A stretch of DNA of 64,000 nucleotides from Gammaproteobacteria bacterium (GTDB lineage: Bacteria; Pseudomonadota; Gammaproteobacteria; G965277405). Below, piece after piece: positions 47,582 to 62,656 of the stretch; the first letter of the stretch is position 1, and the number at the start of each line of letters is the position of its first letter. The DNA lies in the NCBI GenBank assembly GCA_965277405.1, contig OZ255726.1:608001-672000 (forward strand). The letters are read 5' to 3'. The notes beneath the pieces were generated by a model. The model was not told the DNA's origin. It searched no databases and worked only from the letters and a program-made list of their open reading frames with translations. The translations under genes were made by a program, and so were the position numbers.

Positions 47582-49042
47582 ATGCAAAAACCAGAATTTG
47601 ATCCTTACAACAATAGAGGCTTGTTTTATAACGGAACGTGGCAGCCTGCCAACGGATCTGGTAATTTGCCAGTGTACAACCCTTGTAATGAAGAAATTGT
47701 AGGGCGAATACAACCAGCGAATGCAGACGATACCCGCAAGGCAATATCATCCGCAGCGAATGCGTTAGCAAAATGGCGCGCAGTAGTACCTTGGGAGCGC
47801 GCAATGTTGTTGCACAAGGTTGCCGCAGTCATGAGACAGCACACACAAGACGCAGCGTATTTTCTTGCAACAGAGCTTGGTAAGCCAGTTGCTCAAGGTG
47901 AGCGTGAATGGGGCATGGCTATCGACCAATTTGAGTGGTACGGAGATGAAGCGCGAAGATTACATGGCGATATAATTGCCAGCCGTTTACCAGATGCGCA
48001 TTATGAAGTAACAATTGAGCCAGTTGGTGTTGTCGCGGCATTTACTGCATGGAATTTTCCGCCTTTATTAGCAAGTCGTAAAATTGCCCCGGCACTTGCC
48101 GCAGGGTGTTCGATTGTATTAAGACCTTCTGTTGAGGCTCCTGCTGCGGTATTGCTGTTAGTAGATTGCTGTCGTCATGCTGGCATTCCTGCTGGTGTGG
48201 TGAATGTTGTGGTCGGCCCTATTGATGCTACATATCAGCCATTAGTTGCCGACAAACGCGTTAAGAAAATTAGCTTAACTGGTTCAACAGCCGTTGGTAA
48301 GCAAATGATTCGTGATTGCGCTGATACTGTAAAAAAAATGAGTATGGAGCTTGGCGGTAATGCGCCAACCATCATATTTGACGACGTTGATATTCCGTCT
48401 GTTGTCGCCCAAGCTGTGGCCTCGAAGCATGCCAATGCGGGCCAAGTGTGCGCAGCTCCAGATCGGTTTTTTGTGCACGCGGCAATTTACAAAAAATTTG
48501 TTGCTGAATATGTCAAACAGGTTAAAAAAATTGTCGTGGGGGATAGCTTTGACGCAGCGACGAATATGGGTCCATTGGTGAATCAAAAGCGTGTTATTGC
48601 TGTTGATAAGGTCGTTCGTGACAGCATTGAAAAAGGTGCACAGCTACTTATTGGCGGCAAGCAACTTGATACAAAAGGTTTTTTTTATGCCCCGACGGTG
48701 CTGGCAGATGTTACGGATGACATGCTGTGTAGCTGTGAAGAAAACTTTGGTCCAATTACAGCATTTACTAGCTTTGATAATGAAGAGGAAGTTGTGCAGA
48801 GGGCGAATGCTGCGGAGCTTGGTTTAGCTGCATATGTCTTTAGCAAGCATCATAATAGACTGCGGAGGGTGGTGAGCCAGATACAAACGGGAATGGTCGC
48901 GGCAAATACATTCGCATTGGCCAGCGCGCAGATGCCATTTGGCGGAATAAAGCAAAGCGGCTATGGCCGCGAAGGCGGGTCAAATTCTATGCGTGATTAT
49001 TGTAATATTAAAGTAGCTCATTTTTTTACAGGTGGTGAGTAA
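47582..49042 (+). CDS. NAD(P)-dependent aldehyde dehydrogenase (SSADH/KGSADH-like, non-CoA-acylating)
   Basis: WNFP, TGSTAVGK, ELGGNAP, AGQVC, EENFGP, PFGGIKQSG.GREGG. Confidence 0.9.
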   Translation: MQKPEFDPYNNRGLFYNGTWQPANGSGNLPVYNPCNEEIVGRIQPANADDTRKAISSAANALAKWRAVVPWERAMLLHKVAAVMRQHTQDAAYFLATELGKPVAQGEREWGMAIDQFEWYGDEARRLHGDIIASRLPDAHYEVTIEPVGVVAAFTAWNFPPLLASRKIAPALAAGCSIVLRPSVEAPAAVLLLVDCCRHAGIPAGVVNVVVGPIDATYQPLVADKRVKKISLTGSTAVGKQMIRDCADTVKKMSMELGGNAPTIIFDDVDIPSVVAQAVASKHANAGQVCAAPDRFFVHAAIYKKFVAEYVKQVKKIVVGDSFDAATNMGPLVNQKRVIAVDKVVRDSIEKGAQLLIGGKQLDTKGFFYAPTVLADVTDDMLCSCEENFGPITAFTSFDNEEEVVQRANAAELGLAAYVFSKHHNRLRRVVSQIQTGMVAANTFALASAQMPFGGIKQSGYGREGGSNSMRDYCNIKVAHFFTGGE

Positions 49043-49788
49043 TGAGTAATATTTGGCAGAAAGACAAAGTACTACTGAATGGTTGGCTATCAATAGCTAA
49101 TAGTTTTAGTGCCGAAATTATGGCTAAGCAAGGTTGGGATTGCGTTTGTATTGATGCCCAACATGGCATGCTGGATTTTTCTGATGCTTTTGGTATGTTG
49201 CAGGCAATCAAGACTACTGATGCAATTCCGTTGGTGCGGATACCGTGGTTGCGACCAGAACAGATATCAAAATATTTAGATGCTGGTTGTATGGGGCTGA
49301 TTTGCCCGATGATTAACAGCGTCGATGACGTTAAGAATTTTGTGAAGTGGAGCAGCTACCCAAAACAGGGTGAGCGCAGTTTTGGTCCTTCACGCGTGAT
49401 TTTTGAGAATCCTAATTATTTTCATGAGGCAAATGAGGCAATTACTCGTTTAGCGATGATAGAAACACAGCAGGCGGTGGAAAACCTCGAACAAATTTGT
49501 TGTGTGGAAGGTTTGGATGGACTGTATATTGGGCCTGCTGACTTGTCTTGTGCGTTTGGGTATGCGCCAGCTTTAGATAGGGAGGAAGATGAAATGATTG
49601 GCTTGATTAAAACAATCATTGCTACTGCTCATAAACAAGACAAAAAAGTTGGTATACACACGGCTTCTGCAGCATATGCAAAAAAGGCTATCGCATGGGG
49701 TGTTGACATGGTCACCATTTCAAACGATGTGCGACTGCTGGCATCTGCGGCACAAGATATTCTCAGTGAAATGAGGATAAGTAGTTAG
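49042..49788 (+). CDS. HpcH/HpaI-family class II pyruvate aldolase
   Basis: IDAQHG, LVRIP, LDAG..GLICPMI, MIET, IGPADL; TAATG overlap with the ALDH. Confidence 0.9.
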   Translation: MSNIWQKDKVLLNGWLSIANSFSAEIMAKQGWDCVCIDAQHGMLDFSDAFGMLQAIKTTDAIPLVRIPWLRPEQISKYLDAGCMGLICPMINSVDDVKNFVKWSSYPKQGERSFGPSRVIFENPNYFHEANEAITRLAMIETQQAVENLEQICCVEGLDGLYIGPADLSCAFGYAPALDREEDEMIGLIKTIIATAHKQDKKVGIHTASAAYAKKAIAWGVDMVTISNDVRLLASAAQDILSEMRISS

Positions 49789-49861
49789 GGGGGATTCTAG
49801 ATAACACAATGATTGTTGAGTTCTTTAGAGTTCCTTATTTTATTATTATGAAGGAGAGAAA

Positions 49862-50797
49862 ATGAAAAAAATCTTACTGGTTATATTAACTATCTGTATG
49901 GCAGCACCGCTGCTGGCAGCCGATAGATATACATTTATATCGCATGCTCCAGACTCTGATTCTTGGTGGAACACTATTAAGAATTCATTGAAGGATGCTG
50001 AAAAAGCATTTACTGTGACTGTCGATTATCGTAATCCAGCTAATGGTGATTTAGCTGAAATGAGCCGCTTAATTGAGCAAGCAGTTGCGAGAAACAGTGA
50101 TGGTATTATCACTACTATTGCCGACTATGATGTATTGAAAGGACCAATCCAAAAAGCTGTGAATAAAGGAATTCCAGTAATCACGGTGAACTCAGGTACA
50201 CCTGAGCAAAGCAAATCCTTAGGTGCCATCATGCATATTGGTCAGCCAGAATATGCGGCCGGCTTTGGTGCTGGTGATAAAGCAAAAAGAGATGCTGGGG
50301 TGAAAACATTCCTGTGTGTCAACCACTATGCTACCAATCCAGTCTCGTGGGAACGTTGCCGTGGTTTTGCCAATGCCATTGGAATATCAGATGATGACTT
50401 TAGAAAATACGCTGTAGATAGTGGTACTGACCCAAGCACTATTACCGGTCGTGTTTCTGCGTATCTGCGCAAAAATCCAAAAACCGATGCGGTGTTGGCG
50501 CTTGGTCCTACTTCTGCGCATCCTCTGATCAGGTTATTGAAGAAAATGGGCTTGAGTGATAAAACATATTTTGCTACTTTTGATTTAAGTGGTGAAATTG
50601 CAGCTGCGATAAAGAGTGGTGAGATTGCATTTGGTATTGATCAACAACCATACATTCAAGGCTTTTTTGCTGTTGCTGTAATGAAAAAATTCAACCAGTA
50701 CGGCGTGTTACCAGGCAATAACATTAACTCAGGACCTGGGTTTGTTACCAAAGATAATATTGCTTTAGTTGAGAAATATGCAGGCGAGTATAGATAA
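49862..50797 (+). CDS. Inositol-type sugar ABC transporter substrate-binding protein
   Basis: Signal peptide, SHAPDSDSWWNTIKN, GQPEY.AG, IDQQPY, NINSGPGF, AGEYR; iol gene context. Confidence 0.85.
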   Translation: MKKILLVILTICMAAPLLAADRYTFISHAPDSDSWWNTIKNSLKDAEKAFTVTVDYRNPANGDLAEMSRLIEQAVARNSDGIITTIADYDVLKGPIQKAVNKGIPVITVNSGTPEQSKSLGAIMHIGQPEYAAGFGAGDKAKRDAGVKTFLCVNHYATNPVSWERCRGFANAIGISDDDFRKYAVDSGTDPSTITGRVSAYLRKNPKTDAVLALGPTSAHPLIRLLKKMGLSDKTYFATFDLSGEIAAAIKSGEIAFGIDQQPYIQGFFAVAVMKKFNQYGVLPGNNINSGPGFVTKDNIALVEKYAGEYR

Positions 50798-50811
50798 CAG
50801 GAGTATCTGAT

Positions 50812-50840
50812 AAATGGGGCCCTTAGGGCCCCATTTTTAT
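50812..50840 (+). terminator. Intrinsic terminator-like hairpin after the binding-protein gene
   Basis: AAATGGGGCCC-TTA-GGGCCCCATTT followed by TTAT. Confidence 0.75.
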
Positions 50841-50979
50841 GGGGAATATCATCTCCATGGTGACGATTTGCATCGCTAGATGATTTCTCTGGCTAAATCC
50901 GTTGCGTTGCTAGGGTTCTTTTTATGGGTTTTGTGCAGGCAGCAATACTATTGGTTTACAACTTCAGGGGAGTGTATGT

Positions 50980-52071
50980 ATGGCTCATGATGAGCGAGTA
51001 AAGAAAATACCCATTATTAAAAGTTTATTACGCAGACCTGAATCGGCGTCAATTGTTGGTTTTATTTTTGTCACCTTCTTTTTTTTACTAACAGGCGATA
51101 TTGCCATGTTCAGTGTCGAAGGGATATTAAACTGGACCACCGTCGCTGCATACCTTGGCGTTCTTGCAGTAGGGGCATGTTTACTCATGATTGCTGGTGA
51201 ATTTGACCTATCTATTGGCTCAATGATTGGTTTTGCTGGCGTTGCTATTTCTATACCCACGGTGTATTGGGGGCTGCCTATCAGCGTAAGTTTGCTGTTG
51301 AGTCTACTGATATGCCTATTCTTTGGTTATTTGAATGGCTACCTAGTTGTACGCACGGGACTGCCATCTTTTATTATTACGCTGGCACTGTTATTTATAT
51401 TGCGCGGTTTAACGTTGGCGCTATCAATTTTATTTACCAACCAAACCATTGTCAGCGGTTTGGATGGCCCAGTGAGTGAGGATGCATTCGTATCATTTTT
51501 ATTCAAAGGGTATGCGTTTGAAGGTCTTTTTGCGTGGCTTGCTAGCGCAGGCGTGTTGGACACCTTCAAAGATGGCGTTACTCCGGTTGTTCAAGGTGTG
51601 CCAAAAGTCATTATTTGGTGTTTGATAATCACCGCAATTGGCACATTTGTATTGAACAAAACACGGCTTGGCAACTGGATTTTTGCATCTGGTGGCGATG
51701 CACATGCAGCGAGAAATGTTGGTGTCCCTGCTGATAATGTAAAAATTGTAATGTTTATGACAACTGCCTTTTGTGCTTGGTTATTTGCTGTGCTACAAGT
51801 GGTAGAAATAGGCTCTGCATCTGCAGATAGAGGGCTGCTCAAGGAGTTTGAAGCAATTATTGCAGTGGTGATCGGTGGAGCATTATTGACAGGAGGCTAC
51901 GGTTCAATAATTGGAGCATTTTTTGGTGCGATTATTTTTGGTATGGTGCAAATGGGCATCACATATACCGACATTACCTCTGACTGGTTCAGGGTATTCC
52001 TTGGCTTGGTGTTGTTAGCTGCTGTACTGTTTAATAATTATGTTAGACAGCAGGTTATGAAATCTCAGTAA
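50980..52071 (+). CDS. Sugar (inositol) ABC permease
   Basis: MIAGEFDLSIGS, GNWIFASGGD, EFEAIIAVVIGGALLTGGYGS. Confidence 0.88.
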   Translation: MAHDERVKKIPIIKSLLRRPESASIVGFIFVTFFFLLTGDIAMFSVEGILNWTTVAAYLGVLAVGACLLMIAGEFDLSIGSMIGFAGVAISIPTVYWGLPISVSLLLSLLICLFFGYLNGYLVVRTGLPSFIITLALLFILRGLTLALSILFTNQTIVSGLDGPVSEDAFVSFLFKGYAFEGLFAWLASAGVLDTFKDGVTPVVQGVPKVIIWCLIITAIGTFVLNKTRLGNWIFASGGDAHAARNVGVPADNVKIVMFMTTAFCAWLFAVLQVVEIGSASADRGLLKEFEAIIAVVIGGALLTGGYGSIIGAFFGAIIFGMVQMGITYTDITSDWFRVFLGLVLLAAVLFNNYVRQQVMKSQ

Positions 52072-52079
52072 GGGGCAAT

Positions 52080-52874
52080 ATGAGCAATACAGTGTTAGCG
52101 TTACAAGGAGTCAGCAAGTTTTTTGGTACAGTTATTGCGCTTCAGGATGTTTCGTTTAGTTTGGAAAAAGCCGAAGTGCATTGTTTGCTTGGTGATAATG
52201 GCGCTGGTAAATCTACCCTAATCAAAATCTTGTCTGGCGTACACACACCGAGCACAGGTAAATACATATACGAAGGTAAGGAAATGCAGATGGATTCGCC
52301 ACGGAATGCGCTGAAGATGGGTGTGGCAACGGTGTATCAAGATTTAGCGCTAGTACCACTGATGAGTATTACGCGTAATTTCTTTATGGGACGTGAAATA
52401 TATTCATCTGTCGTCGGAATAAAAGTTTTAGATATGCCGACGATGAATGAAATCACCCATACGCAGCTTAAAAAAATAGGCATCGCCATTCGCTCGCCAG
52501 CACAGGCTGTTGGGACCATGAGCGGTGGCGAACGCCAATCATTAGCCATCGCTAGGGCGGTGTATTTTGGTGCAAAAGTATTGATTTTAGATGAACCAAC
52601 TGCCGCATTAGGTGTCGTGCAAACAGTCAATGTATTGAAGACTGTTCACCAAACAAAACTGGCTGGGGTATCTGTTATCTTTATAACTCATAATGTACGG
52701 CATGCAATGGCGGTTGGCGACCGTTTCACAGTGTTAAACAGAGGCAAAACGCTAGAGGTATGCAAGAGGAGCGGCACACACGTGACATTAGATTATTTAC
52801 AAAACTTGATGGCGGGTGACAAGGATTTGGAAGATATTACAGCAGAGCTTGGGGACACCGTCGCCAATGTATAA
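52080..52874 (+). CDS. Sugar (inositol) ABC ATPase
   Basis: GDNGAGKST, MSGGERQ, LDEPTAALG. Confidence 0.9.
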   Translation: MSNTVLALQGVSKFFGTVIALQDVSFSLEKAEVHCLLGDNGAGKSTLIKILSGVHTPSTGKYIYEGKEMQMDSPRNALKMGVATVYQDLALVPLMSITRNFFMGREIYSSVVGIKVLDMPTMNEITHTQLKKIGIAIRSPAQAVGTMSGGERQSLAIARAVYFGAKVLILDEPTAALGVVQTVNVLKTVHQTKLAGVSVIFITHNVRHAMAVGDRFTVLNRGKTLEVCKRSGTHVTLDYLQNLMAGDKDLEDITAELGDTVANV

Positions 52875-52904
52875 ATATTTCAGTAGTTAGGCTCCAAAAC
52901 TATA

Positions 52905-54740
52905 ATGCAAAAATTAACCGTAGCGCAGGGCTTAGTAAAGTATCTTTGTCACCAATATATAATTATTGATGGCAAAAAAAAACAACTTTTCCCTGGGATT
53001 TTTGGCATTTTTGGACATGGCAATGTCACCTGTTTAGCGAGTGCGCTGTATCAAGTTAAAGAAGTATTGCCAACATGGCGAGGGCAGAATGAACAGTCGA
53101 TGGCGCATGCGGCAATAGCGTATAGTAAGGCAGTCCTCAGACAGCAAATTATGGTTACTACCTCATCAGTTGGTCCTGGGGCATTGAACATGGTCACAGC
53201 CGCTGGAGTTGCGCATACCAATCACCTACCGCTGCTAATTTTGTCTGGTGACTATTTTGCCAATCGACGCCCAGATCCTGTGCTGCAACAAGTCGAGCAT
53301 CCACATGATCCAACATTGAGTGTGAATGATGCGTTTAAGCCTGTTACTCGCTATTGGGATCGGATAACCCATCCTGAACAAATTTTGCAAAGTCTGCCGC
53401 ATGCCGTGGCAACGCTGGTTGACCCTGGTAGCTGCGGCCCTGCTTTTATCGGTCTTTGTCAAGATATTCAAGGAGTTGCGTATGATTATCCTGAAGAGTT
53501 TTTTGCCGATTGCGTATGGCATATTCCGCGGCCAGAATCTGATAAACAAGAATTAAACAATGCGCTGGCGTTACTCAAATCAGCACAAAAACCTTTGATT
53601 ATTGCCGGCGGTGGGGTGCGCTATTCAAGAGCGAATGCAACGTTGTCGCAGTTTGCACAAAAATATCAAATACCTGTCGTAGAGACGGTCGCTGGTCGAG
53701 CAACATTAATTCATTCTGACCCATCTTTTGCAGGACCGATTGGGGTGACAGGGAGTGATAGTGCGAATTATATGAGCAAAAATGCTGATGTTATTTTGGT
53801 GCTTGGAACCAAGCTGCAAGACTTCACAACAGGCTCGTGGACTAACTTTTCACCTAGCGCCCAATTCATTGCAGTGAATACTCGGCGGTTTGATACAACC
53901 AAGCACCGAGCACTTGCTGTTGTAGCTGATGTTAAAGTAACACTCGAACAGTTTGACGCGCGTTTTACTGATTTTGCTGGATTCGATGCTGGCTGGTATG
54001 CAACGGCAAGAAGCCAATTACAACAATGGGATGGCGCAATCGATACGTATAACGCCCAAACAGGTACTTTAATGCACTATGGGCATATTATCGCCGCGGT
54101 AAATAAACAGTGCCAAGACAATAGCTATGTGCTTACCGCCGCGGGGGGCTTCCCTGGTGAATTGAATAAGATGTGGCGGACTAGCACACCAGATACTGTT
54201 GATTGTGAGTATGGGTTTTCTTGCATGGGGTATGAAATTGCAGGTGGTTGGGGCGCAAAAATGGCTTGTCCGCACAATGATGTGTATGTGCTCGTCGGTG
54301 ATGGCTCGTATATGATGATGAACAGTGATATATATTCATCAGTGCTCACTGGGCATAAACTCATCGTTATCGTTTGTGATAATTTTGGTTTCGCTGTTAT
54401 CAATCGGCTGCAAAACGCTACAGGCGGTGCGTCGTTTAATAATCAAATTGCAGATTGCAAAATAACCGAACCTTTTTCTGTTAATTTTGCGCAACATGCT
54501 GCGTCTATGGGCGCGTATAGCAAAAAAGTTGAGACGCAAGAGCAGTTTATAGCAGCGCTTAAATGGGCGAAAACTACAGATAAAACGACAGTTATTTGTG
54601 TCGAGATTGACCCTTTTACTTGGTCCAAAGGTGGGTGCTGGTGGGATGTTGGCATGCCAGAGGTGAGCGATAGCACCGCAATTCAACAAGCAAGTGTAGA
54701 GCATCAACACGGGAGATTGCAGCAAAGGCGCGGCATCTAA
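52905..54740 (+). CDS. iolD: 3D-(3,5/4)-trihydroxycyclohexane-1,2-dione acylhydrolase
   Basis: GIFGHGNV, GQNEQSMAH, RRPDPVLQQ, EYGFSCMGYE, GDGSY ThDP motif, WWDV. Confidence 0.95.
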   Translation: MQKLTVAQGLVKYLCHQYIIIDGKKKQLFPGIFGIFGHGNVTCLASALYQVKEVLPTWRGQNEQSMAHAAIAYSKAVLRQQIMVTTSSVGPGALNMVTAAGVAHTNHLPLLILSGDYFANRRPDPVLQQVEHPHDPTLSVNDAFKPVTRYWDRITHPEQILQSLPHAVATLVDPGSCGPAFIGLCQDIQGVAYDYPEEFFADCVWHIPRPESDKQELNNALALLKSAQKPLIIAGGGVRYSRANATLSQFAQKYQIPVVETVAGRATLIHSDPSFAGPIGVTGSDSANYMSKNADVILVLGTKLQDFTTGSWTNFSPSAQFIAVNTRRFDTTKHRALAVVADVKVTLEQFDARFTDFAGFDAGWYATARSQLQQWDGAIDTYNAQTGTLMHYGHIIAAVNKQCQDNSYVLTAAGGFPGELNKMWRTSTPDTVDCEYGFSCMGYEIAGGWGAKMACPHNDVYVLVGDGSYMMMNSDIYSSVLTGHKLIVIVCDNFGFAVINRLQNATGGASFNNQIADCKITEPFSVNFAQHAASMGAYSKKVETQEQFIAALKWAKTTDKTTVICVEIDPFTWSKGGCWWDVGMPEVSDSTAIQQASVEHQHGRLQQRRGI

Positions 54741-54768
54741 GGCTATTTTTTACCAACTAATTTTTTCA

Positions 54769-55665
54769 ATGCAACAATTAAACACAAAAATTGGTGTGTC
54801 AGCTATTGCCTGGCTGAACGACGATACACCAGAACTAACAAACCATGTCACCCTTGAGCAGGCGCTTGCTGATATGGAAAAAATCGGGTTTAAAGGAACA
54901 GAAAATGGCACTGCATTTCCAAAAGATGCTGCTGCTTTATCGAGTGTGCTGTGTCGCTATAACCTAGAGCTGGTTTCAGGCTGGTACACCGGCAAATTAG
55001 CAGAGAGAAGTTATCAAGACGAATTGCAGGCAATCAAAGCGCAGCTTAAGTTGTTCAAAGAGCTTGGTGCAGCGGTTATCGTCTATGGTGAAACCAGCAG
55101 AGCCATGAATCTAAGACAGCCATTGCTGCAAAAGCCAACCATTGCTAAAGATGAGTTTCCTGCATACGCGAGGAAAGTAGACGACCTTGCCAAGTATTGT
55201 AATGACTTTGGTGTGCCATTGGCGTTGCATCAACATATGGGGACCTGTATTCAACATATGGATGAATTACACCGATTGATGGATCTGACCACAGAGTTAC
55301 ATATCACTTTTGATACAGGGCATTGTCTGCTGGCAGGTGGTGATCCATTAGAAATATGTCAAATGTATGCGCAGCGCATCAATCACTTACATTTGAAAGA
55401 TGTCCGTAAGCCAATGCTTGATGCTCTTGATGTCGCGCAAGATTCATTTACTGATGTGCTCAGCAAAGGAGTGTTTACAGTTCCAGGGGATGGTTGCATC
55501 GACTATGACCCTATTATTGATACGTTACGACAGCATGGCTACCAAGGCTGGTTTGTTATTGAGGCTGAACAAGACCCGCGCAAGGCTGACCCATATGCAT
55601 TTTCAAAACAAGGCTATGAATATACGCAGCAGCTTGCCTTAAGACATAATTACCAACTCAATTAA
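54769..55665 (+). CDS. iolE: Myo-inosose-2 dehydratase
   Basis: IAWLNDD, SGWY, HQHMGT, DTGH, HLKDVR, FTVPGDG, EAEQDP. Confidence 0.92.
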   Translation: MQQLNTKIGVSAIAWLNDDTPELTNHVTLEQALADMEKIGFKGTENGTAFPKDAAALSSVLCRYNLELVSGWYTGKLAERSYQDELQAIKAQLKLFKELGAAVIVYGETSRAMNLRQPLLQKPTIAKDEFPAYARKVDDLAKYCNDFGVPLALHQHMGTCIQHMDELHRLMDLTTELHITFDTGHCLLAGGDPLEICQMYAQRINHLHLKDVRKPMLDALDVAQDSFTDVLSKGVFTVPGDGCIDYDPIIDTLRQHGYQGWFVIEAEQDPRKADPYAFSKQGYEYTQQLALRHNYQLN

Positions 55666-55676
55666 GCTAACGCAGC

Positions 55677-56705
55677 ATGAAAAAAATTAAACTAGCGATC
55701 AGTGGCTTAGGTCGATTGGGAGCAATGCAGGCTGAAAATTTAGCGTATAGAATACCAGGCTGCAAACTAATTGCGGCGTGTGATCCTGATACAGCAAAAT
55801 TACAATGGGCAAAGGAGCATTTAGGCGTTGATCACACCTATACAAATTTTACAACACTTTGCAAGCAAGAGGATATAGACGGTATTTTCATTGTATCGCC
55901 GACGGCATTGCATGGTGAGCATATTATTGGGGCATTACAGTCTGGTAAGCATGTTTTTTGTGAAAAACCGTTAGCAATGACCATTAGGGAATGTGTTCAG
56001 ATTGAGCAAGAACGCGAAAAATTTAAAAAATGCATCGCTATGATTGGCTTTTCACGCCGCTATGACGCTGCATATATGCGCGCCAAGGCAAAAGTTGATG
56101 CGGGACAAATAGGCAGACCGTTCTTTATTCGCAGTACTTCAAGCGACATGCACGCAACCGCAGCGTTTCAAATTGAGTTTTCCAAAAAAAGCGGAGGTAT
56201 TTTTGTCGATATGGCAATCCACGATGTAGACATGGTGCATTGGATGAGTGGTCAGCAACTCAAGCGGGTATTTGGTGTAGGCGGCGCATATTGCAACCCT
56301 AGTTTTGCAGAATTTAACGATGCCGATAATGCAGCAGTTTTAGGGGAGCAACAAGACGGAACGATGGCGATGATACAAGTCACCAGAGATTCATTTTATG
56401 GCGACTCAACTGATTTAACGATTCAGGGGACAAAAGGAGCATTGCATGTCAACAATCATTCTCGACGCGACCAGCTCGATGAATATATTGACGGGGCAAT
56501 GAAAATTGAATGCACCGATGGTTTTTCACAACGATTTAGGCAGGCATTTATTACGGAAGCTGAATGTTTTGTAGACCACATTCGCTCAAATACCCAACCA
56601 CAGAACACGCTTACAGAGGCAACGTATGCTACAAAAGCAGCGATTGCCTGCCGTCAGGCATTACAAACGAAATCAATTATCGAACTGGACGAAGTAACAG
56701 ATTGA
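55677..56705 (+). CDS. Gfo/Idh/MocA oxidoreductase, inositol dehydrogenase-like
   Basis: GLGRLG, FCEKP, GFSRRYD, SGGIFVDMAIHDVD. Confidence 0.88.
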   Translation: MKKIKLAISGLGRLGAMQAENLAYRIPGCKLIAACDPDTAKLQWAKEHLGVDHTYTNFTTLCKQEDIDGIFIVSPTALHGEHIIGALQSGKHVFCEKPLAMTIRECVQIEQEREKFKKCIAMIGFSRRYDAAYMRAKAKVDAGQIGRPFFIRSTSSDMHATAAFQIEFSKKSGGIFVDMAIHDVDMVHWMSGQQLKRVFGVGGAYCNPSFAEFNDADNAAVLGEQQDGTMAMIQVTRDSFYGDSTDLTIQGTKGALHVNNHSRRDQLDEYIDGAMKIECTDGFSQRFRQAFITEAECFVDHIRSNTQPQNTLTEATYATKAAIACRQALQTKSIIELDEVTD

Positions 56706-56728
56706 TACGCTAACGAGGCAATTGACAC

Positions 56729-57724
56729 ATGATAAACGTAGCCGTTTTTGGCACAGGTAGAATTGGCAAAATTCATATTAATAATATAGCACAACATGCT
56801 GATGTGCGGCTGGTTGGGATTTGTGACCCATACGCTATAGATATCCACGTGATTGCGGATCGCTATCAAACCAAGGTGATGTTAGCAGTAGATATTTTTG
56901 CAGATACCTCAATCGAGATAGTGGTTATTGCCAGCAGCACCAGTACCCACTTTGAGCTGATACAACAATCCTTGTTACACGGCAAACATATTTTTTGTGA
57001 AAAACCAATAGATCTGGCGATTGATAAGGTTCGCAGCATTCAAGCATTAGCGGAGCAAAGCCAAAGTAAATTTGGCTTTGGGTTGAATAGGCGTCACGAT
57101 ACCAACTTTACCCATTTAAAGCAGGCAATCGATGCTGGTGAAATTGGGCAATTAGAAAGTTTGAGCATTATTTCGCGCGATCCTGCGCCACCACCTTTGG
57201 AATATATTAAAAATTCTGGTGGGCTAATTAGAGATATGATGATTCATGATCTAGATATGGCAAACTTTTTGCTAGGTAGCGACACCATTGTCGACGTGTA
57301 TGCCAGAGGCTCAAACTTTGTTGACCCTGCGATTGGCGCAGCAGGAGACATTGACGGCGCTAGCGTTCACTTTACCACCAACAACGGAGTGCTAGGCAAC
57401 ATCATTAATTCCAGAAGGTGCGCATATGGCTATGATCAAAGAATCGAAGCGTTTGGCGCCAAAGGACATTTGCTCGTCCACAATGTACCGCAGAACTTTG
57501 TCGAGAAGGCCACCGCAGATGCTGTGCAACACCCACTACCCCAGTTGTTTTTTTTGCAACGCTATGCAGCAGCATACCAAATTGAATTAGACGCATTTTT
57601 CAACTGGATACAAGGAGGCAAACCGTTTCGAGCCAATCTTATGGATGCTGTGTATGCCTCAGAGTTAGCAGAAATAATCATGACATCACTTGCAAGAAAA
57701 GAAAAAATGCAGGTTGATTTATGA
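56729..57724 (+). CDS. iolG: Inositol 2-dehydrogenase
   Basis: GTGRIG, FCEKPID, SRDPAPPP, SGGLIRDMMIHD, YGYDQRIE, FFLQRY. Confidence 0.9.
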   Translation: MINVAVFGTGRIGKIHINNIAQHADVRLVGICDPYAIDIHVIADRYQTKVMLAVDIFADTSIEIVVIASSTSTHFELIQQSLLHGKHIFCEKPIDLAIDKVRSIQALAEQSQSKFGFGLNRRHDTNFTHLKQAIDAGEIGQLESLSIISRDPAPPPLEYIKNSGGLIRDMMIHDLDMANFLLGSDTIVDVYARGSNFVDPAIGAAGDIDGASVHFTTNNGVLGNIINSRRCAYGYDQRIEAFGAKGHLLVHNVPQNFVEKATADAVQHPLPQLFFLQRYAAAYQIELDAFFNWIQGGKPFRANLMDAVYASELAEIIMTSLARKEKMQVDL

Positions 57725-58854
57725 TCAAATACAAGGTTGAGAAACCCTTACACATTGGGGTGATTGGTGCTGGATATATGGGGAAAAGCCATGCCCATGC
57801 GTATAGAAATCTTGCTGGTCATCCGTTACACCCGCGATTATACGCGGTTGCTACAAGCAATATTGCCTCGGCAAAACACGCGGCAGAAGCATATAATTTC
57901 CCGCGCTACACCGATTGTTGGCGGTTACTGTGTGAAGATGAGCAAGTAGATGTCGTCTGTGTTACTAGCCCGAATCAATTTCATCTTGAGCAGGCACAAT
58001 ACGCCCTTGAATGCGGTAAAAAATTATCGCTTGAAAAACCGTTGGTTATTAGCATCGCCGAGCTGGCAGTACTCAATACCACAGCAAAAGCGGCGAACAC
58101 TACGATTAACATTGGGTATAATTATTTGCATAACCCAATGCTGTATTACGCTAAGCAACTCATCCAAACGGGAAAAATAGGAGCATTAGTCAGTTTCCGT
58201 GTTATTCACAGTGAGGATTTTTTAGCCCAGCAAGCGAGTACTTTTAAATCATGGCATATTGACAAAAGCGTCGGCGGTGGTGTTGTCAGAGACATCGGCT
58301 CACACCCATTGTCAATGGTAAATTACTTGATTGGTGATGTTCAGCGTGTTTGCGCAATTGGTAAACGCCAGTTTGCGACAAGAGGTCCTAAGCACACCCC
58401 AGTAACCGTGGAAGACCATATTGATGTGCTTATCGCCATGGATGATAACCTGCAAGGTACGCTAACGGCATCGTGGATAGGTTCTGGTCGGGGGATGAAT
58501 CTGGGCTTCGAAATCTACGGCAGCCAAGGTGCATTATGTTTTAACCAAGAACGCCTCAACGAATTGCAACTGTATGTGGTCGATCAACATAATTTAGCCG
58601 ATAAAGGCGCACTGACATTACGCGCTGGTCAGCATCACCCCGAATTCGATGTGGTTTGTCCAGGCAATGAGCACGGGATAGGGTTCATGGATTTAAAAAT
58701 ATTAGAGGCTAAAAATTATTTAGACAGCATTTTGCAGAACAAACAGCCGATTACCAGTTTGGCAATGGGGTTGAAAGTAGAGCAACAAATTGCAGCTATA
58801 TATCAATCAATTGCGGCAAAAAATTGGATTGACGTGTGTTACGAAATTGCGTAA
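57721..58854 (+). CDS. Gfo/Idh/MocA oxidoreductase (third paralogue, different clade)
   Basis: GAGYMGKSH, LEKPL, GYNY, DIGSH, QERLNEL, GFMDLK.LE. Confidence 0.88.
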   Translation: MIKYKVEKPLHIGVIGAGYMGKSHAHAYRNLAGHPLHPRLYAVATSNIASAKHAAEAYNFPRYTDCWRLLCEDEQVDVVCVTSPNQFHLEQAQYALECGKKLSLEKPLVISIAELAVLNTTAKAANTTINIGYNYLHNPMLYYAKQLIQTGKIGALVSFRVIHSEDFLAQQASTFKSWHIDKSVGGGVVRDIGSHPLSMVNYLIGDVQRVCAIGKRQFATRGPKHTPVTVEDHIDVLIAMDDNLQGTLTASWIGSGRGMNLGFEIYGSQGALCFNQERLNELQLYVVDQHNLADKGALTLRAGQHHPEFDVVCPGNEHGIGFMDLKILEAKNYLDSILQNKQPITSLAMGLKVEQQIAAIYQSIAAKNWIDVCYEIA

Positions 58855-58869
58855 TAGCAGAGTATCACC

Positions 58870-59709
58870 ATGGAACTTGATAAAGTTAACACAACAATTG
58901 CTGAGATATATTCGAGCCTGAGTCCTGTTAATAAAAAAATTGCAAATTATTTCTTAACCAATCCAGACGAGATTGTTTTTTATAACATCGTCAGTTTGAG
59001 TCAGATTTTACAAATTAGTCCTTCAAGCATTTTCAAGTTTGCCAAACTATTAGGGTTAACCGGCTTTAAGGAATTACAGAATATCTACAGAATGCATCTG
59101 GTTCAAACTTCTGTAGAAGGTGGTTTTTCTGAAAAGCACAGCGCGCTCAAGCAGAGCGTAGCATTGACCACAAAATACGACCTACAGCGAGTTATTGATG
59201 ATATTGTAAAACAAGATTTACTGGCGCTTGAGCAAATGAGAAAGCATATAGACGTTGCTGATGTCGAACGTGCCATCAGTAAAATGCTTGCTGCAGATAC
59301 TATTTATATTGCAGGACAACTGCGTTCCGAATCGATTGCCAACTGGTTGTGCTATACCTTAACAATGCTTGGGAAAAAAAATCGCCTACTCAATGCCAGC
59401 GCAGCTGCTATGCATGGAGCACAAGGAAAATTCATTGGTTGCAATGATGTCCTGATGAGTATTTCGTTCCAGTTTTATTCAGAATTGGTTATTCAAACAA
59501 CCAACACTGCTAGGCAAAACAAATGCAATATTATTGCCATTACAGATGGAGATGCCTCGCCCTTGCAGCCGTTGGCTGACGTGTGTTTTTCATTGCCCTA
59601 TAAAGAGTATTTGTTTTCTAAATCACTGACAGCGGCAATGAGTTTAGCTCTCATTCTGACAACTGGCTTGGCGCAAAAATTTAAAAGTTATGAAAAAACG
59701 AATATCTAA
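58870..59709 (+). CDS. RpiR/MurR-family transcriptional regulator (HTH + SIS), IolR-like
   Basis: LSPVNKKIANY...SSIFKFAKLLGLTGFKELQ; IIAITD...SPL. Confidence 0.88.
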   Translation: MELDKVNTTIAEIYSSLSPVNKKIANYFLTNPDEIVFYNIVSLSQILQISPSSIFKFAKLLGLTGFKELQNIYRMHLVQTSVEGGFSEKHSALKQSVALTTKYDLQRVIDDIVKQDLLALEQMRKHIDVADVERAISKMLAADTIYIAGQLRSESIANWLCYTLTMLGKKNRLLNASAAAMHGAQGKFIGCNDVLMSISFQFYSELVIQTTNTARQNKCNIIAITDGDASPLQPLADVCFSLPYKEYLFSKSLTAAMSLALILTTGLAQKFKSYEKTNI

Positions 59710-61417
59710 GGAACAGCTGCGCAGTTTTCGCTGGTATGGCAAAGATGATCTGCGCTCGTTTGGACACAGATCACGCAGCAAGCAAATGGGGCTGTGGGAT
59801 GAAGAATATATAGGAAAACCAATCATTGGGATAATCAACCCGTGGAATGAACTCAATACCTGCCATACGCATTTCCCCGATCGAGTTATAGATATTAAAA
59901 GGGGGGTGACTGCCAGTGGAGGGTTCCCCGTTGAAATTCCTGTCATGTCTTTAGGCGAGCAATTGATGAAACCAACGGCGATGTTGTTCCGTAATTTTTT
60001 GGCAATGGAAGTTGAAGAGATTATCCGCGCGTATCCCATCGATGGTGTCGTGCTGCTTGGTGGTTGCGACAAGACAACGCCTGGCGTAATAATGGGTGGC
60101 ATCAGCGTTGGCTTACCGATGCTATATGTGCCTGGAGGAGCAATGCGCAAGGCTGCTTGGCGTGGCGAAGTATTGGGCAGTGGCAGTGATGTTTGGAAGT
60201 ATTGGGAAGAAAAAAGAATTGGCACATTGCCTGCTGCAGATTGGGAAGATTTAGAAAATAGTATTGCCGCGACTCCAGGTACCTGCATGTCTATGGGCAC
60301 CGCCGCGACCATGATGAGCGTTGCCGACGCCCTGGGATTGTGCATTACTGGCGCGTCTTCGATTCCTGCCGTCGATGCCAACCATAGGCGCATGGGGTCA
60401 CAGTCTGGGCGTCTCATTGTGGAAATGGTTTGGCAGGATGTACGACCAACTGATATTATTAGTCGGCAAAGCGTTGAAAATGCTGTCAAAGTCTGCTGCG
60501 CTATTGGCGGCTCTACTAACGCCATCATCCATATTGTTGCAATCGCCAAGCGCGCGAAAATACCATTTTCTCTTGAAGAGTTTGATACGCTTGCAAAAGA
60601 TGTGCCATTACTCGCCAATATTAAGCCAACAGGTAAATATGTAATGGAGGATTTTTATTTTGCAGGTGGGTTAAAGGCGCTGATGTGGCAACTAAGAAGG
60701 CACTTAAATTTGCAGCTACCAACAGTTAATTTTCGCACGCTCCATCAAAACGTGGCTGAGAGTAAAGTGTGGAATGAAACAGTCATTACCAGTGTCGATA
60801 ACCCGCTCTCTCCTGGAGGCTCATTAGTCATCTTGAAAGGCAATATCGCACCAAATGGCTGCGTACTAAAACCGCATGCCATGGAAAAGCGGTTTTTGAA
60901 GCATACTGGCAAAGCGCTAGTGTATGACCACATTAAAACCATGAAAATAGCAATGGAAGATATGGCGCTTGATGTCAGCAAAGATGATGTATTGGTGCTG
61001 CGTAATGCAGGTTCAGTTGGTGCAATGGGGATGCCAGAATGGGGGCAGTTACCGTTACCAAAAAAACTCGTGAAACAAGGTGTTCGCGATATGCTGCGTA
61101 TTTCTGATGCACGGATGAGCGGCACAAGTTATGGCGCGTGTATTTTGCACGTCAGCCCAGAAGCTGCGCTGCATGGGCCGCTGGCGCTGATCCAAAATGG
61201 CGATGAAATTTGTTTAGATGTGGAAAAACGTAGCCTCCACGTTTTAGTCGATGAGGTAACGTTAGCTGCGAGAAGAAAAAAACTACCGCCAATAACAAGC
61301 TATGACTCTGGCTACGCTGCATTATTCAGCAAACACATCCAACAAGCAGATCAAGGCTGTGACTTCGATTTTCTTGCGCATGGCGATAGAACAAGTGATG
61401 AACCGTTTATTGACTAG
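59690..61417 (+). CDS. IlvD/Edd-family [2Fe-2S] sugar-acid dehydratase (AraD-like clade)
   Basis: NTCH, GGCDKTTP, GTCMSMGTA, GGSTNA, GMPEWG, SDARMSGTS, HVSPE. Confidence 0.92.
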   Translation: MKKRISKEQLRSFRWYGKDDLRSFGHRSRSKQMGLWDEEYIGKPIIGIINPWNELNTCHTHFPDRVIDIKRGVTASGGFPVEIPVMSLGEQLMKPTAMLFRNFLAMEVEEIIRAYPIDGVVLLGGCDKTTPGVIMGGISVGLPMLYVPGGAMRKAAWRGEVLGSGSDVWKYWEEKRIGTLPAADWEDLENSIAATPGTCMSMGTAATMMSVADALGLCITGASSIPAVDANHRRMGSQSGRLIVEMVWQDVRPTDIISRQSVENAVKVCCAIGGSTNAIIHIVAIAKRAKIPFSLEEFDTLAKDVPLLANIKPTGKYVMEDFYFAGGLKALMWQLRRHLNLQLPTVNFRTLHQNVAESKVWNETVITSVDNPLSPGGSLVILKGNIAPNGCVLKPHAMEKRFLKHTGKALVYDHIKTMKIAMEDMALDVSKDDVLVLRNAGSVGAMGMPEWGQLPLPKKLVKQGVRDMLRISDARMSGTSYGACILHVSPEAALHGPLALIQNGDEICLDVEKRSLHVLVDEVTLAARRKKLPPITSYDSGYAALFSKHIQQADQGCDFDFLAHGDRTSDEPFID

Positions 61418-62592: not shown

Positions 62593-62656
62593 GGCGACAT
62601 GTATATCTGGTTGAAATTTGCATTGACAGCAGCTGTGGATCAGGTGTGGAGCAGGT

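What the first reader, a model, noticed from the sequence alone, without database searches (positions are those of the whole stretch)
47582..61417. Candidate non-phosphorylative myo-inositol degradation pathway (iolGED without iolBCJA, plus dehydratase, HpcH aldolase and ALDH)
Seen: one co-oriented, closely spaced cluster ALDH-hpcH-ABC-iolD-iolE-3x Gfo/Idh/MocA-rpiR-ilvD/edd. ALDH/hpcH overlap by 1 nt and rpiR/dehydratase by 20 nt. No IolB isomerase, IolC kinase, IolJ aldolase or IolA/MmsA is in the cluster; the ALDH has ELGG, so it is not the CoA-acylating IolA type. Established: IolG-IolE-IolD give 5-deoxy-D-glucuronate, IlvD/Edd enzymes convert aldonic acids to 2-keto-3-deoxy acids, and HpcH aldolases cleave 4-hydroxy-2-oxo acids to pyruvate plus an aldehyde. 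Inference: C1 oxidation (a spare Gfo/Idh/MocA enzyme or the ALDH) gives 5-deoxyglucarate, dehydration gives 4-hydroxy-2-oxoadipate, aldol cleavage gives pyruvate + malonate semialdehyde, and the ALDH could give malonate. The extra genes fill the missing lower pathway without ATP. I know of no description of this route but could not search.
Basis: partly seen in the sequence, partly recalled or inferred. Interest (0 to 1): 0.88.

Follow-up and report, generated by a model that had tools for sequence, protein, structure and literature searches.

The report
Inositol breakdown cluster lacking kinase route
This small bacterial genome has the first three enzymes of inositol breakdown but none of the usual next ones, and beside them sit a dehydrogenase, a dehydratase and an aldolase that could finish the job without ATP, a route that has apparently not been described.

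Summary
The cluster is real at the stated coordinates: ALDH, HpcH aldolase, a sugar-type ABC transporter, IolD, IolE, three Gfo/Idh/MocA dehydrogenases, RpiR and an IlvD/Edd dehydratase, all on the + strand.

The complete 2.17-Mb genome has no IolB, IolC or DUF2090 aldolase. It has one stand-alone CoA-acylating MmsA elsewhere.

Comparative evidence links the extra genes to inositol genes:
- Orthologues of this HpcH lie within 10 kb of IolD in 48 of the 80 closest IolD loci. Wherever the ALDH orthologue is also present (35 loci), the two genes are adjacent.
- The dehydratase belongs to a five-member clade. The three members with readable context all sit among iol genes.
- One metagenome contig repeats the whole set in a single operon, with MmsA upstream.
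- 88 dehydratase homologues outside the clade show no such link.

Against a simple replacement of IolB/IolC:
- 48 of 55 genomes tested that carry a related IolD locus also have IolB.
- The closest dehydratase homologue lies beside IolB and IolC.
- Most HpcH-type clusters carry a 2-hydroxyacid dehydrogenase and an SDR, not the dehydratase.

No chemistry was tested, and ten literature searches found no description. Verdict: a plausible new ATP-independent lower branch, about 55% for the specific route.

The parts
47582..49042 (+). NAD(P)-dependent hydrolytic aldehyde dehydrogenase, succinate-semialdehyde-dehydrogenase-like. Proposed: 5-deoxyglucuronate to 5-deoxyglucarate (alternative: malonate semialdehyde to malonate).
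   Evidence: PF00171 510 bits. Best NCBIfam is SSADH, 485.6 bits, below its cut-off of 646. Closest solved structure is E. coli SSADH 3JZ4, 403 bits. MELGGNAP and GQVCAAP are present. It scores only 196.7 bits to MMSDH, cut-off 448.5. Orthologues of 45% identity or more lie in 38 of 80 IolD loci; in the 35 loci that also hold the HpcH orthologue, the two genes are 19-54 nt apart.
49042..49788 (+). HpcH/HpaI class II (metal-dependent) 2-oxoacid aldolase. Proposed: 4-hydroxy-2-oxoadipate to pyruvate plus malonate semialdehyde.
   Evidence: PF03328 96.8 bits. Best NCBIfam is HpaI, 167.9 bits, below its cut-off. Closest solved structures are the 'hydroxyketoacid aldolase' 6R62 group (177 bits), then HpaI 4B5S (134 bits). 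It is the only HpcH-family gene in the genome. Orthologues of 45% identity or more lie in 48 of 80 IolD loci and in L145.
49862..52874 (+). CUT2-type sugar/cyclitol ABC transporter: binding protein 49862-50797, permease 50980-52071, single-domain ATPase 52080-52874.
   Evidence: Peripla_BP_4, BPD_transp_2 and ABC_tran. The binding protein is closest to the rhizopine binding-protein family, 255.9 bits, below its cut-off of 420. 48-55% identical homologues stand in the same position in L145.
52905..54740 (+). IolD, 3D-(3,5/4)-trihydroxycyclohexane-1,2-dione hydrolase (product 5-deoxyglucuronate).
   Evidence: TIGR04377 823.9 bits against a cut-off of 715. It is the only copy in the genome.
54769..55665 (+). 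IolE, scyllo-inosose (2-keto-myo-inositol) dehydratase.
   Evidence: TIGR04379 346.7 bits against a cut-off of 290.
55677..56705 (+). Gfo/Idh/MocA dehydrogenase 1, IolG-like but below the cut-off. Probably an inositol-isomer dehydrogenase.
   Evidence: TIGR04380 285.4 bits against a cut-off of 355.
56729..57724 (+). IolG, myo-inositol 2-dehydrogenase.
   Evidence: TIGR04380 358.3 bits against a cut-off of 355.
57721..58854 (+). Gfo/Idh/MocA dehydrogenase 3, scyllo-inositol/levoglucosan-dehydrogenase-like.
   Evidence: Levoglucosan dehydrogenase family 217.8 bits, below its cut-off of 650. Closest named structure is 5YA8, scyllo-inositol dehydrogenase with L-glucose dehydrogenase activity, 191 bits. 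A homologue lies next to the dehydratase in L141 and L145.
58870..59709 (+). RpiR-family regulator (HTH_6 plus SIS), probable repressor of the cluster.
   Evidence: Pfam. RpiR homologues lie in 43 of 80 IolD loci.
59690..61417 (+). IlvD/Edd-family sugar-acid dehydratase. Proposed: 5-deoxyglucarate to 4-hydroxy-2-oxoadipate.
   Evidence: ILVD_EDD_N and C domains. NF009559 L-arabinonate dehydratase 864.8 bits, below its cut-off of 882. Closest structures are 8EJ0 (543 bits) and the L-arabinonate dehydratase 5J84 (527 bits). The CDK, GTC and SDARMSGT stretches are kept. It is not the housekeeping IlvD, which lies at C1:1305816-1307447 and is 30% identical. It belongs to a clade of five with SH-aLRT 99, with iol context in L145 and L141.
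61612..63999 (+). TctC-TctB-TctA tripartite carboxylate transporter (TctA runs off the window). Whether it belongs to the cluster is uncertain.
   Evidence: Pfam TctC, TctB, TctA. A 194-nt gap follows the dehydratase. TctA ends at genome position 672605, and unrelated genes follow. It does not recur in related loci.

Best explanation
The cluster encodes a complete inositol catabolic route that bypasses IolB, IolC and IolJ and uses no ATP.

Upper pathway (assigned by family models that pass their curated cut-offs):
- The ABC transporter takes up an inositol.
- IolG, helped by two further Gfo/Idh/MocA dehydrogenases for other isomers, makes scyllo-inosose.
- IolE dehydrates it, and IolD opens the ring to 5-deoxy-D-glucuronate.

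Lower pathway (inferred):
- The SSADH-like hydrolytic ALDH oxidises the aldehyde to 5-deoxy-D-glucarate. This compound is D-xylonate with a carboxyl group in place of the C5 hydroxyl.
- The pentonate-type IlvD/Edd dehydratase removes water across C2-C3 to give 4-hydroxy-2-oxoadipate.
- The HpaI-like aldolase, whose textbook substrate is one CH2 longer, cleaves this to pyruvate and malonate semialdehyde.
- The stand-alone CoA-acylating MmsA elsewhere in the genome converts malonate semialdehyde to acetyl-CoA and CO2.
- RpiR is the likely regulator.

A commoner sister version of the cluster in other Proteobacteria keeps ALDH and HpcH but has a D-2-hydroxyacid dehydrogenase and an SDR instead of the dehydratase. 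It may reach a 3-hydroxy-2-oxo acid and release hydroxypyruvate; this is speculation.
For: (1) Need for a substitute.
- The genome is one contig and 98.26% complete. It has one IolD, one IolE and an IolG over their cut-offs.
- It has no IolB, no IolC over the cut-off and no DUF2090.
- In a sample of its class, the 12 other IolD-positive genomes all have an IolB match: 9 of 12 over the cut-off and 3 weaker matches lying next to IolD.

(2) HpcH and ALDH are linked to IolD.
- Of the 80 IolD loci closest to this one, 48 hold an HpcH orthologue of 45% identity or more, 38 an ALDH orthologue, and 35 both.
- In 42 full 21-kb loci the counts are 30, 27 and 24.
- In the 35 loci with both, the pair is 19-54 nt apart. 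Across the 48 HpcH loci, HpcH lies a median 2.6 kb from IolD.

(3) The dehydratase is linked to iol genes.
- With L141, L142, L143 and L145 it forms a clade with SH-aLRT 99.
- L145 has binding protein-permease-ATPase-IolD-IolE-Gfo-dehydratase-IolG-ALDH-HpcH in one tight operon, in an organism of 32.5% GC against 44.8% here.
- L141 has dehydratase-Gfo-ALDH beside IolG, IolC and IolB.
- Outside the clade, none of 75 metagenome loci and none of 13 genome loci has IolD, IolE or a close HpcH.

(4) Malonate semialdehyde as a product.
- MmsA lies divergently upstream in L145 (530 bits).
- It also lies inside the HpcH-type clusters L091 and L109, whose genomes showed no IolB or IolC.

(5) Each enzyme's nearest characterised relatives act on close analogues of the proposed substrate: SSADH, L-arabinonate and D-xylonate dehydratases with the catalytic stretches kept, and HpaI or hydroxyketoacid aldolase.

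(6) One genome of 2.1 Mb (G042, found through locus L111) has a single IolD flanked by both the HpcH set and IolC/IolB. This fits two lower branches fed by the same IolD product.
Against: - No reaction was assayed, and the proposed intermediates were never observed.
- 48 of 55 genomes tested that carry a related IolD locus also have IolB over the cut-off. In 3 of the 5 genomes tested for IolD copy number there are two IolD copies. The HpcH-type cluster could therefore serve another substrate and not replace IolB/IolC.
- The closest dehydratase homologue (L141, 63% identity) lies beside IolC and IolB.
- The dehydratase is absent from the 80 IolD loci (no good hit; one 28% hit) and from the 12 IolD-positive genomes of the class sample as a neighbour of IolD. 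Full recurrence therefore rests on one metagenome contig.
- The dehydratase scores just under the L-arabinonate dehydratase cut-off.
- Its five clade-specific substitutions include no new basic residue that would suggest binding of a second carboxylate.
- The binding protein is nearest to rhizopine binding proteins, below the cut-off.
- Whether the organism grows on inositol is unknown.
Confidence: 0.55

Rival explanations
1. Same enzyme logic, different substrate. The cluster, and the commoner HpcH-type clusters, degrade another cyclitol such as scyllo- or D-chiro-inositol, a methylated inositol or an inosamine. Its IolE/IolD-type products are not handled by IolB/IolC, which would explain why many genomes keep both systems.
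For: - 48 of 55 genomes tested keep IolB.
- 3 of the 5 genomes tested for IolD copy number have a second IolD; in two of them (G041, G043) it lies beside IolC, and in G043 beside IolB too.
- The binding protein's best family is the rhizopine binding protein, 255.9 bits, below its cut-off of 420.
- Three different Gfo/Idh/MocA dehydrogenases are present, one nearest to scyllo-inositol dehydrogenase.
Against: - This genome has only one IolD, IolE and IolG set, and all three pass the curated myo-inositol family cut-offs.
- G042 has a single IolD flanked by both lower-pathway sets.
- All known inositol isomers are funnelled into scyllo-inosose in described pathways (established knowledge, recalled).
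Confidence: 0.2
2. Two unrelated modules are juxtaposed. The dehydratase, HpcH and ALDH form a Dahms-type non-phosphorylative route for a pentose, hexose or imported sugar acid (perhaps through TctCBA and a Gfo dehydrogenase). IolG, IolE and IolD are then a separate, truncated or differently completed pathway.
For: - The dehydratase scores 864.8 bits to L-arabinonate dehydratase, cut-off 882.
- Its nearest named structures are L-arabinonate and D-xylonate dehydratases.
- HpcH-family aldolases of about 30% identity accompany 9 of the 80 generic dehydratase loci.
- The TctCBA carboxylate transporter lies directly downstream.
Against: - Orthologues of this HpcH and ALDH pair go with IolD in loci that have no IlvD/Edd gene at all (48 and 38 of 80).
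- The dehydratase clade has iol neighbours in all three members with informative context. None of 88 homologues outside the clade does.
- In L145 the dehydratase sits between IolE-Gfo and IolG.
- No lactonase gene is in the cluster.
- The Tct genes do not recur.
Confidence: 0.12
3. Same overall route, different assignment of steps. A Gfo/Idh/MocA enzyme (Gfo3) oxidises the hemiacetal of 5-deoxyglucuronate to the lactone and so to 5-deoxyglucarate, and the SSADH-like ALDH oxidises malonate semialdehyde to malonate.
For: - Gfo3-like genes lie next to the dehydratase in L141 and L145 and recur in 31 of 80 IolD loci.
- The ALDH is closest to dehydrogenases of short omega-carboxy aldehydes.
Against: - No malonyl-CoA decarboxylase was found, although that search's controls were silent and so it proves little.
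- A CoA-acylating MmsA is available and is clustered in L145, L091 and L109.
- Gfo3 resembles scyllo-inositol dehydrogenase.
Confidence: 0.08

Closest known systems
Canonical myo-inositol catabolism (IolG-IolE-IolD-IolB-IolC-IolJ or DUF2090-IolA; Bacillus subtilis, Caulobacter, rhizobia)
   Same: The upper three enzymes pass their family cut-offs. An RpiR-type regulator and a sugar ABC transporter are present. Malonate semialdehyde is the presumed three-carbon product, and MmsA is present in the genome.
   Different: No IolB, IolC or DUF2090 anywhere in the genome. The proposed branch oxidises 5-deoxyglucuronate where the canonical route isomerises and phosphorylates it. It yields pyruvate in place of dihydroxyacetone phosphate.
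Dahms-type non-phosphorylative pentose route (sugar dehydrogenase, IlvD/Edd pentonate dehydratase, 2-keto-3-deoxy-acid aldolase, aldehyde dehydrogenase)
   Same: The same three enzyme types in the same chemical order. The dehydratase is nearest to L-arabinonate and D-xylonate dehydratases. The aldolase releases pyruvate plus a short aldehyde.
   Different: The genes are embedded in an iol operon. Orthologues of the aldolase and ALDH follow IolD, not pentose genes. The proposed substrate is a six-carbon deoxy-aldarate made from a cyclitol. No lactonase is in the cluster.
HpaI/HpcH 4-hydroxy-2-oxoheptanedioate aldolase and the 'hydroxyketoacid aldolase' group (PDB 6R62, 4B5S)
   Same: Same family (PF03328). 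Best structural relatives score 177 and 134 bits. The proposed substrate is the six-carbon homologue of the HpaI substrate.
   Different: Below the HpaI, GarL and RhmA equivalog cut-offs. The genomic context is inositol genes, not homoprotocatechuate or glucarate genes.
HpcH-type iol cluster found here in other Proteobacteria (Gfo3-IolG-2-hydroxyacid dehydrogenase-HpcH-ALDH divergent from RpiR-IolD-IolE-SDR)
   Same: IolD 55-61% identical, HpcH 45-53%, ALDH about 46-53%; RpiR and Gfo genes are shared.
   Different: Those clusters carry a D-2-hydroxyacid dehydrogenase (38 of 80 loci) and an SDR (33 of 80) and no IlvD/Edd dehydratase. This genome has the dehydratase and neither of the other two.

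Membership tests
Canonical iol pathway | IolG, IolE and IolD present | tested here: met
   TIGR04380 358.3 against 355; TIGR04379 346.7 against 290; TIGR04377 823.9 against 715.
Canonical iol pathway | IolB, 5-deoxyglucuronate isomerase | tested here: not met
   0 matches at E<=0.001 in the whole genome, while the control rang in 3 of 14 known genomes. 0 tblastn hits at E<=1 with three IolB proteins.
Canonical iol pathway | IolC, 5-dehydro-2-deoxygluconokinase | tested here: not met
   Best of 6 matches is 64.7 bits against a cut-off of 300. tblastn with two IolC-DUF2090 fusions gave E>=3.6e-4 only.
Canonical iol pathway | IolJ or DUF2090 aldolase | tested here: inconclusive
   DUF2090: 0 matches. 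One class II fructose-bisphosphate aldolase lies at C1:580391-581359, outside the cluster. The family model cannot tell IolJ from the glycolytic enzyme.
Canonical iol pathway | IolA/MmsA, CoA-acylating malonate semialdehyde dehydrogenase | tested here: met
   TIGR01722 641.4 bits against 448.5 at C1:1861144-1862586. It stands alone between unrelated genes.
Dahms/Weimberg non-phosphorylative pentose pathway | IlvD/Edd pentonate dehydratase | tested here: inconclusive
   NF009559 L-arabinonate dehydratase 864.8 bits, just below its cut-off of 882. The catalytic stretches are kept. The enzyme sits in an iol-linked clade.
Dahms/Weimberg non-phosphorylative pentose pathway | Pentose dehydrogenase plus lactonase in the cluster | tested here: not met
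   No lactonase family appears among the cluster's 13 genes. The Gfo genes score only 61-63 bits to xylose dehydrogenase Gfo6, cut-off 350. Lactonases were not searched genome-wide.
Dahms/Weimberg non-phosphorylative pentose pathway | Alpha-ketoglutarate semialdehyde dehydrogenase (Weimberg) or glycolaldehyde dehydrogenase (Dahms) | tested here: not met
   The ALDH scores 339 bits to GucD (cut-off 770) and 340.7 to AldA-type PRK10090 (cut-off 500). Its best family is SSADH.
HpcH/HpaI aldolase family (PF03328) | Domain match over the gathering score | tested here: met
   96.8 bits against 25, covering profile positions 5-219 of 221.
HpaI / GarL / RhmA equivalogs | Score over the curated equivalog cut-off | tested here: not met
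   167.9 against 368.8; 144.9 against 406.75; 125.8 against 441.
Hydrolytic (non-acylating) ALDH | General-base Glu in ELGG and the catalytic Cys (roles of the residues recalled from the ALDH literature) | tested here: met
   MELGGNAP at residue 256 and GQVCAAP. The genome's MmsA has QALGG at the aligned place.

The most novel reading that the evidence does not exclude
Bacteria possess an undescribed, ATP-independent oxidative lower branch of inositol catabolism: 5-deoxyglucuronate to 5-deoxyglucarate to 4-hydroxy-2-oxoadipate to pyruvate plus malonate semialdehyde. It can fully replace IolB, IolC and IolJ, as it appears to in this genome. A dehydratase-free sister variant (2-hydroxyacid dehydrogenase plus SDR, perhaps releasing hydroxypyruvate) is widespread in rhizobia, roseobacters, Pantoea and Enterobacter. 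This would also give the 'hydroxyketoacid aldolases' used in biocatalysis a physiological role.
Probability: 0.5. Interest if true: 0.8.

Novelty: new variant of a known kind. Interest (0 to 1): 0.7.

Why it matters
Inositols are abundant in soil, plants and seawater, and inositol catabolism affects root and host colonisation. Pathway predictors assume the IolB-IolC-IolJ/DUF2090 branch. In the passages I read of the GapMind carbon-source paper (PMC9007349), 8 of 15 inositol-using microbes had neither IolJ nor DUF2090, so a missing route is expected. A confirmed oxidative branch would fill such gaps. It would assign functions to a conserved ALDH-HpcH pair found next to IolD in many Proteobacteria. 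It would also add a short, kinase-free route from inositol to pyruvate and acetyl-CoA, and two new enzyme specificities (a 5-deoxyglucarate dehydratase and a 4-hydroxy-2-oxoadipate aldolase) of use in biocatalysis.

Tried and rejected
Literature. Ten full-text searches found no description of 5-deoxyglucarate, of an iolD-HpcH link, or of a non-phosphorylative inositol route. Hits for '4-hydroxy-2-oxoadipate' in the listing looked like the aromatic-pathway compound 4-carboxy-4-hydroxy-2-oxoadipate, judging by the titles and abstracts listed. I saw only search listings and abstract starts, except for PMC9007349, where I read the passages on inositol. Its novelty is the DUF2090 aldolase, which is absent here. 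The library lacks most subscription journals, and supplements were not opened, so prior description elsewhere is not excluded.

Kin. The genome has no close relatives in the collection: all 40 'relatives' are from other families of the same class. No within-family comparison was possible.

Phylum sample. 400 genomes searched with the dehydratase gave 30 with homologues of 49-57% identity, and no further member of the iol-linked clade. None of the 13 best loci had iol neighbours.

Specificity positions. Five substitutions are fixed in the five-member dehydratase clade against 76 others (S53N, L133V, P151A, L318V, Y415I in window numbering). None is a new basic residue, and without coordinates I could not place them relative to the active site.

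Promoter and terminator scan. Counts were at or below the shuffled expectation and gave no information on operon limits.

Malonyl-CoA decarboxylase and inositol oxygenase. Neither was found in the genome, but the control genomes were silent too, so these blanks show nothing.

Expression. No RNA holder was listed for the stretch. Three DNA runs of one study hold it.

Structure prediction, fold search, complex prediction, the protein atlas, the search for homologous proteins and the search of protein representatives were not used, because none gives genomic context or ligand specificity.

Caveat on my ORF calls. My crude ORF caller produced spurious antisense ORFs in high-GC loci (clusters x749, x446, x368 and x492). 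For that reason the counts reported come from tblastn, not from the ORF clusters, except where stated.

Full report
OBSERVATION. The region holds thirteen closely spaced + strand genes exactly as described. Pfam and NCBIfam assign them as follows:
- an aldehyde dehydrogenase (47582-49042);
- an HpcH/HpaI aldolase (49042-49788);
- a sugar-type ABC transporter (49862-52874);
- IolD (52905-54740; TIGR04377, 823.9 bits against a cut-off of 715);
- IolE (54769-55665; 346.7 against 290);
- three Gfo/Idh/MocA dehydrogenases (55677-58854), the middle one passing the IolG cut-off at 358.3 against 355;
- an RpiR regulator (58870-59709);
- an IlvD/Edd dehydratase (59690-61417), whose best family is L-arabinonate dehydratase at 864.8 bits, just below the cut-off of 882.

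The 1-nt and 20-nt overlaps and the ELGG motif of the ALDH are real. TctC, TctB and TctA follow after 194 nt. TctA ends at genome position 672605, and unrelated genes come next. Cluster GC (44.0%) equals genome GC (44.8%).

THE GENOME LACKS THE USUAL LOWER PATHWAY. The window lies in a single 2,174,577-base contig rated 98.26% complete.
- IolB: no match at E<=0.001, while the same search rang in 3 of 14 control genomes. tblastn with three IolB proteins taken from other loci gave nothing at E<=1.
- IolC: six weak PfkB-type matches, best 64.7 bits against a cut-off of 300.
- DUF2090, the proteobacterial aldolase domain: none.
- There is one IolD, one IolE and one HpcH gene. The housekeeping IlvD is a separate gene, 30% identical.
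- A genuine CoA-acylating MmsA (641 bits against 448.5) lies 1.2 Mb away as a stand-alone gene between maf and umuDC.
- One class II fructose-bisphosphate aldolase lies outside the cluster. The family model cannot distinguish it from IolJ.
- In an evenly drawn sample of the same class, 13 of 400 scored genomes have IolD, this genome included. The 12 others all have an IolB match: 9 over the cut-off and 3 weaker matches lying next to IolD. This genome is the only one of the 13 without any.

THE ALDOLASE AND THE ALDH TRAVEL WITH IolD. A scan of species-representative genomes with this IolD returned 80 loci, at most 61% identical.
- By tblastn, 48 of the 80 hold an HpcH orthologue of 45% identity or more, 38 an ALDH orthologue, and 35 both.
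- Among the 42 loci with the full 21 kb, the counts are 30, 27 and 24.
- In the 35 loci with both, the two genes are 19-54 nt apart. Across the 48 HpcH loci, HpcH lies a median 2.6 kb from IolD.
- The typical layout is Gfo3-IolG-(D-2-hydroxyacid dehydrogenase)-HpcH-ALDH, divergent from RpiR-IolD-IolE-SDR. It occurs in Pantoea, an Enterobacter plasmid, Erwinia, Shinella, Mesorhizobium, Roseivivax, Spiribacter, Amphritea and others.
- In my ORF clusters the 2-hydroxyacid dehydrogenase occurs in 38 of the 80 loci and the SDR in 33.
- An IolC-DUF2090 fusion occurs in 4 of 80, and IolB in 4 of 80.
- No locus has a good IlvD/Edd hit; there is one 28% hit.
- This genome has no orthologue of that 2-hydroxyacid dehydrogenase or SDR.

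THE DEHYDRATASE BELONGS TO A SMALL iol-LINKED CLADE. A metagenome scan with the dehydratase gave 80 loci of 53-63% identity. In a maximum-likelihood tree of 82 rows (quick search, SH-aLRT only), the window's enzyme groups with L141, L142, L143 and L145 at 99% support.
- L145 (GC 32.5%, so a different organism) carries binding protein-permease-ATPase-IolD-IolE-Gfo-dehydratase-IolG-ALDH-HpcH as one tight operon. Divergently upstream it has a Gfo gene, a hydroxypyruvate-isomerase-like gene and MmsA. No IolB or IolC lies in the 16 kb held.
- L141, the closest homologue, has dehydratase-Gfo-ALDH-(PhyH-type dioxygenase)-IolG-IolC/DUF2090-IolB. The contig ends just upstream of the dehydratase.
- L142 has a sugar ABC transporter, a TIM-barrel gene and a Gfo gene nearby, but no clear iol gene.
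- L143 is a 2-kb contig without context.
- Outside the clade, none of 75 metagenome loci holds IolD or IolE. Nine hold only distant (29-34%) HpcH-family genes.
- In a 400-genome sample of the phylum, 30 genomes have homologues of 49-57% identity, and none of the 13 best has iol neighbours.

WHAT SPEAKS AGAINST A SIMPLE REPLACEMENT.
- Of 55 genomes tested that hold one of the 80 IolD loci, 48 have IolB over the cut-off somewhere (3 of 5; 45 of 50). The other 25 were not tested.
- Of five examined in detail, three have two IolD copies. In two of them (G041, G043) the second copy lies beside IolC, and in G043 beside IolB too. In the third (G044) both copies lie on one contig in a genome that showed no IolB or IolC.
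- One genome of 2.1 Mb (G042) has a single IolD with both the HpcH set and IolC/IolB within 9 kb.
- Two metagenome-assembled genomes (G044, G045) showed no IolB or IolC. Their HpcH-type clusters contain MmsA.
- So in most organisms the HpcH-type genes accompany the canonical branch and do not replace it. The case for replacement rests on this complete genome, on L145 and on the two assembled genomes, whose completeness I do not know.

MECHANISM. The steps up to 5-deoxyglucuronate follow from family models that pass their curated cut-offs. The rest is inference from chemistry and from nearest relatives.
- 5-Deoxy-D-glucarate keeps the C2-C4 configuration of D-xylonate and carries a carboxyl group in place of the C5 hydroxyl. 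It therefore offers the 2,3-dihydroxy acid that IlvD/Edd enzymes dehydrate.
- The dehydratase's nearest solved relatives are a dihydroxy-acid dehydratase entry (8EJ0) and the L-arabinonate and D-xylonate dehydratases. The Cys, Asp-Lys and Ser-containing stretches align unchanged. The roles of these residues are recalled from the literature, not tested here.
- The product, 4-hydroxy-2-oxoadipate, is the lower homologue of the HpaI substrate. The aldolase's nearest structures are the 'hydroxyketoacid aldolase' group and HpaI.
- The ALDH is a hydrolytic enzyme nearest to succinate semialdehyde dehydrogenases. Both 5-deoxyglucuronate and malonate semialdehyde are omega-carboxy aldehydes.
- I favour the ALDH for the first oxidation because MmsA is available for malonate semialdehyde and because Gfo3 resembles scyllo-inositol dehydrogenases.
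- Net result: inositol gives pyruvate, acetyl-CoA and CO2 with no kinase step.

COMPARISON AND NOVELTY. The cluster works like a Dahms-type non-phosphorylative sugar-acid route grafted onto the upper inositol pathway. It fails membership of the canonical iol pathway at IolB and IolC. It fails membership of a pentose route at the lactonase and at the final dehydrogenase. Ten full-text searches found no description. The GapMind carbon-source paper, in the passages I read, reports only the DUF2090 aldolase as new for inositol. It notes that 8 of 15 inositol-using microbes had neither IolJ nor DUF2090. I rate this a new variant of a known kind, resting on comparative genomics alone.

VERDICT. I put about 55% on the specific route and about 70% on the broader claim that ALDH, HpcH and the dehydratase form an IolB/IolC-independent lower branch in this organism. 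Interest 0.7.

Noticed in passing
window 1-17625, minus strand: One open reading frame of at least 5875 codons that runs off the window start. It is built of Ig-like repeats (He_PIG, DUF11, I-set, DUF7507) and explains the higher GC (about 52%) and strong AT skew of the first 14 kb. Probably a giant surface adhesin.
   Followed up: partly
L083, L084, L086, L100, L109, L111 and others among L045-L124; also L223 (G338:C18): A conserved divergent cluster, Gfo3-IolG-(D-2-hydroxyacid dehydrogenase)-HpcH-ALDH against RpiR-IolD-IolE-SDR, occurs in many Proteobacteria, usually alongside a canonical iol cluster. No description turned up in my searches. It may be a second, dehydratase-free oxidative route that releases hydroxypyruvate.
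   Followed up: partly
window 49042-49788: The closest solved structures are the 'hydroxyketoacid aldolase' entries (6R62 group), which I recall as biocatalysts that accept hydroxypyruvate and whose natural role I do not know. The IolD linkage of this aldolase's orthologues suggests a physiological context for that group.
   Followed up: no
L047, L051, L052, L055 (genomes G048, G050, G051, G054): Four genomes, including a Bradyrhizobium isolate, have IolD-IolE with Gfo genes (three of them also an SDR) but showed no IolB in the genome and no HpcH within 10 kb. This may be yet another way of completing the pathway.
   Followed up: no
window 52080-52874: The ABC ATPase is a single 264-residue nucleotide-binding domain. 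Its best family hits are the N-terminal halves of roughly 500-residue two-domain sugar ATPases. The same short form stands in L145 and L142.
   Followed up: no
L141 4686-5843: A PhyH-type Fe(II)/2-oxoglutarate dioxygenase gene sits between the ALDH and IolG in the locus with the closest dehydratase homologue. Its function is unknown.
   Followed up: no
window 61612-63999: The TctCBA tripartite carboxylate transporter lies directly downstream of the dehydratase. It does not recur in related loci, so its substrate and its link to the cluster are open.
   Followed up: partly
G043:C2:74670-76407; G087, G095, G060, G090, G089, G064, G091: Several genomes carry a second, divergent IolB-like gene (139-163 bits, below the cut-off of 205). 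In G043 it lies next to a short IolC-like kinase, away from both IolD copies.
   Followed up: no
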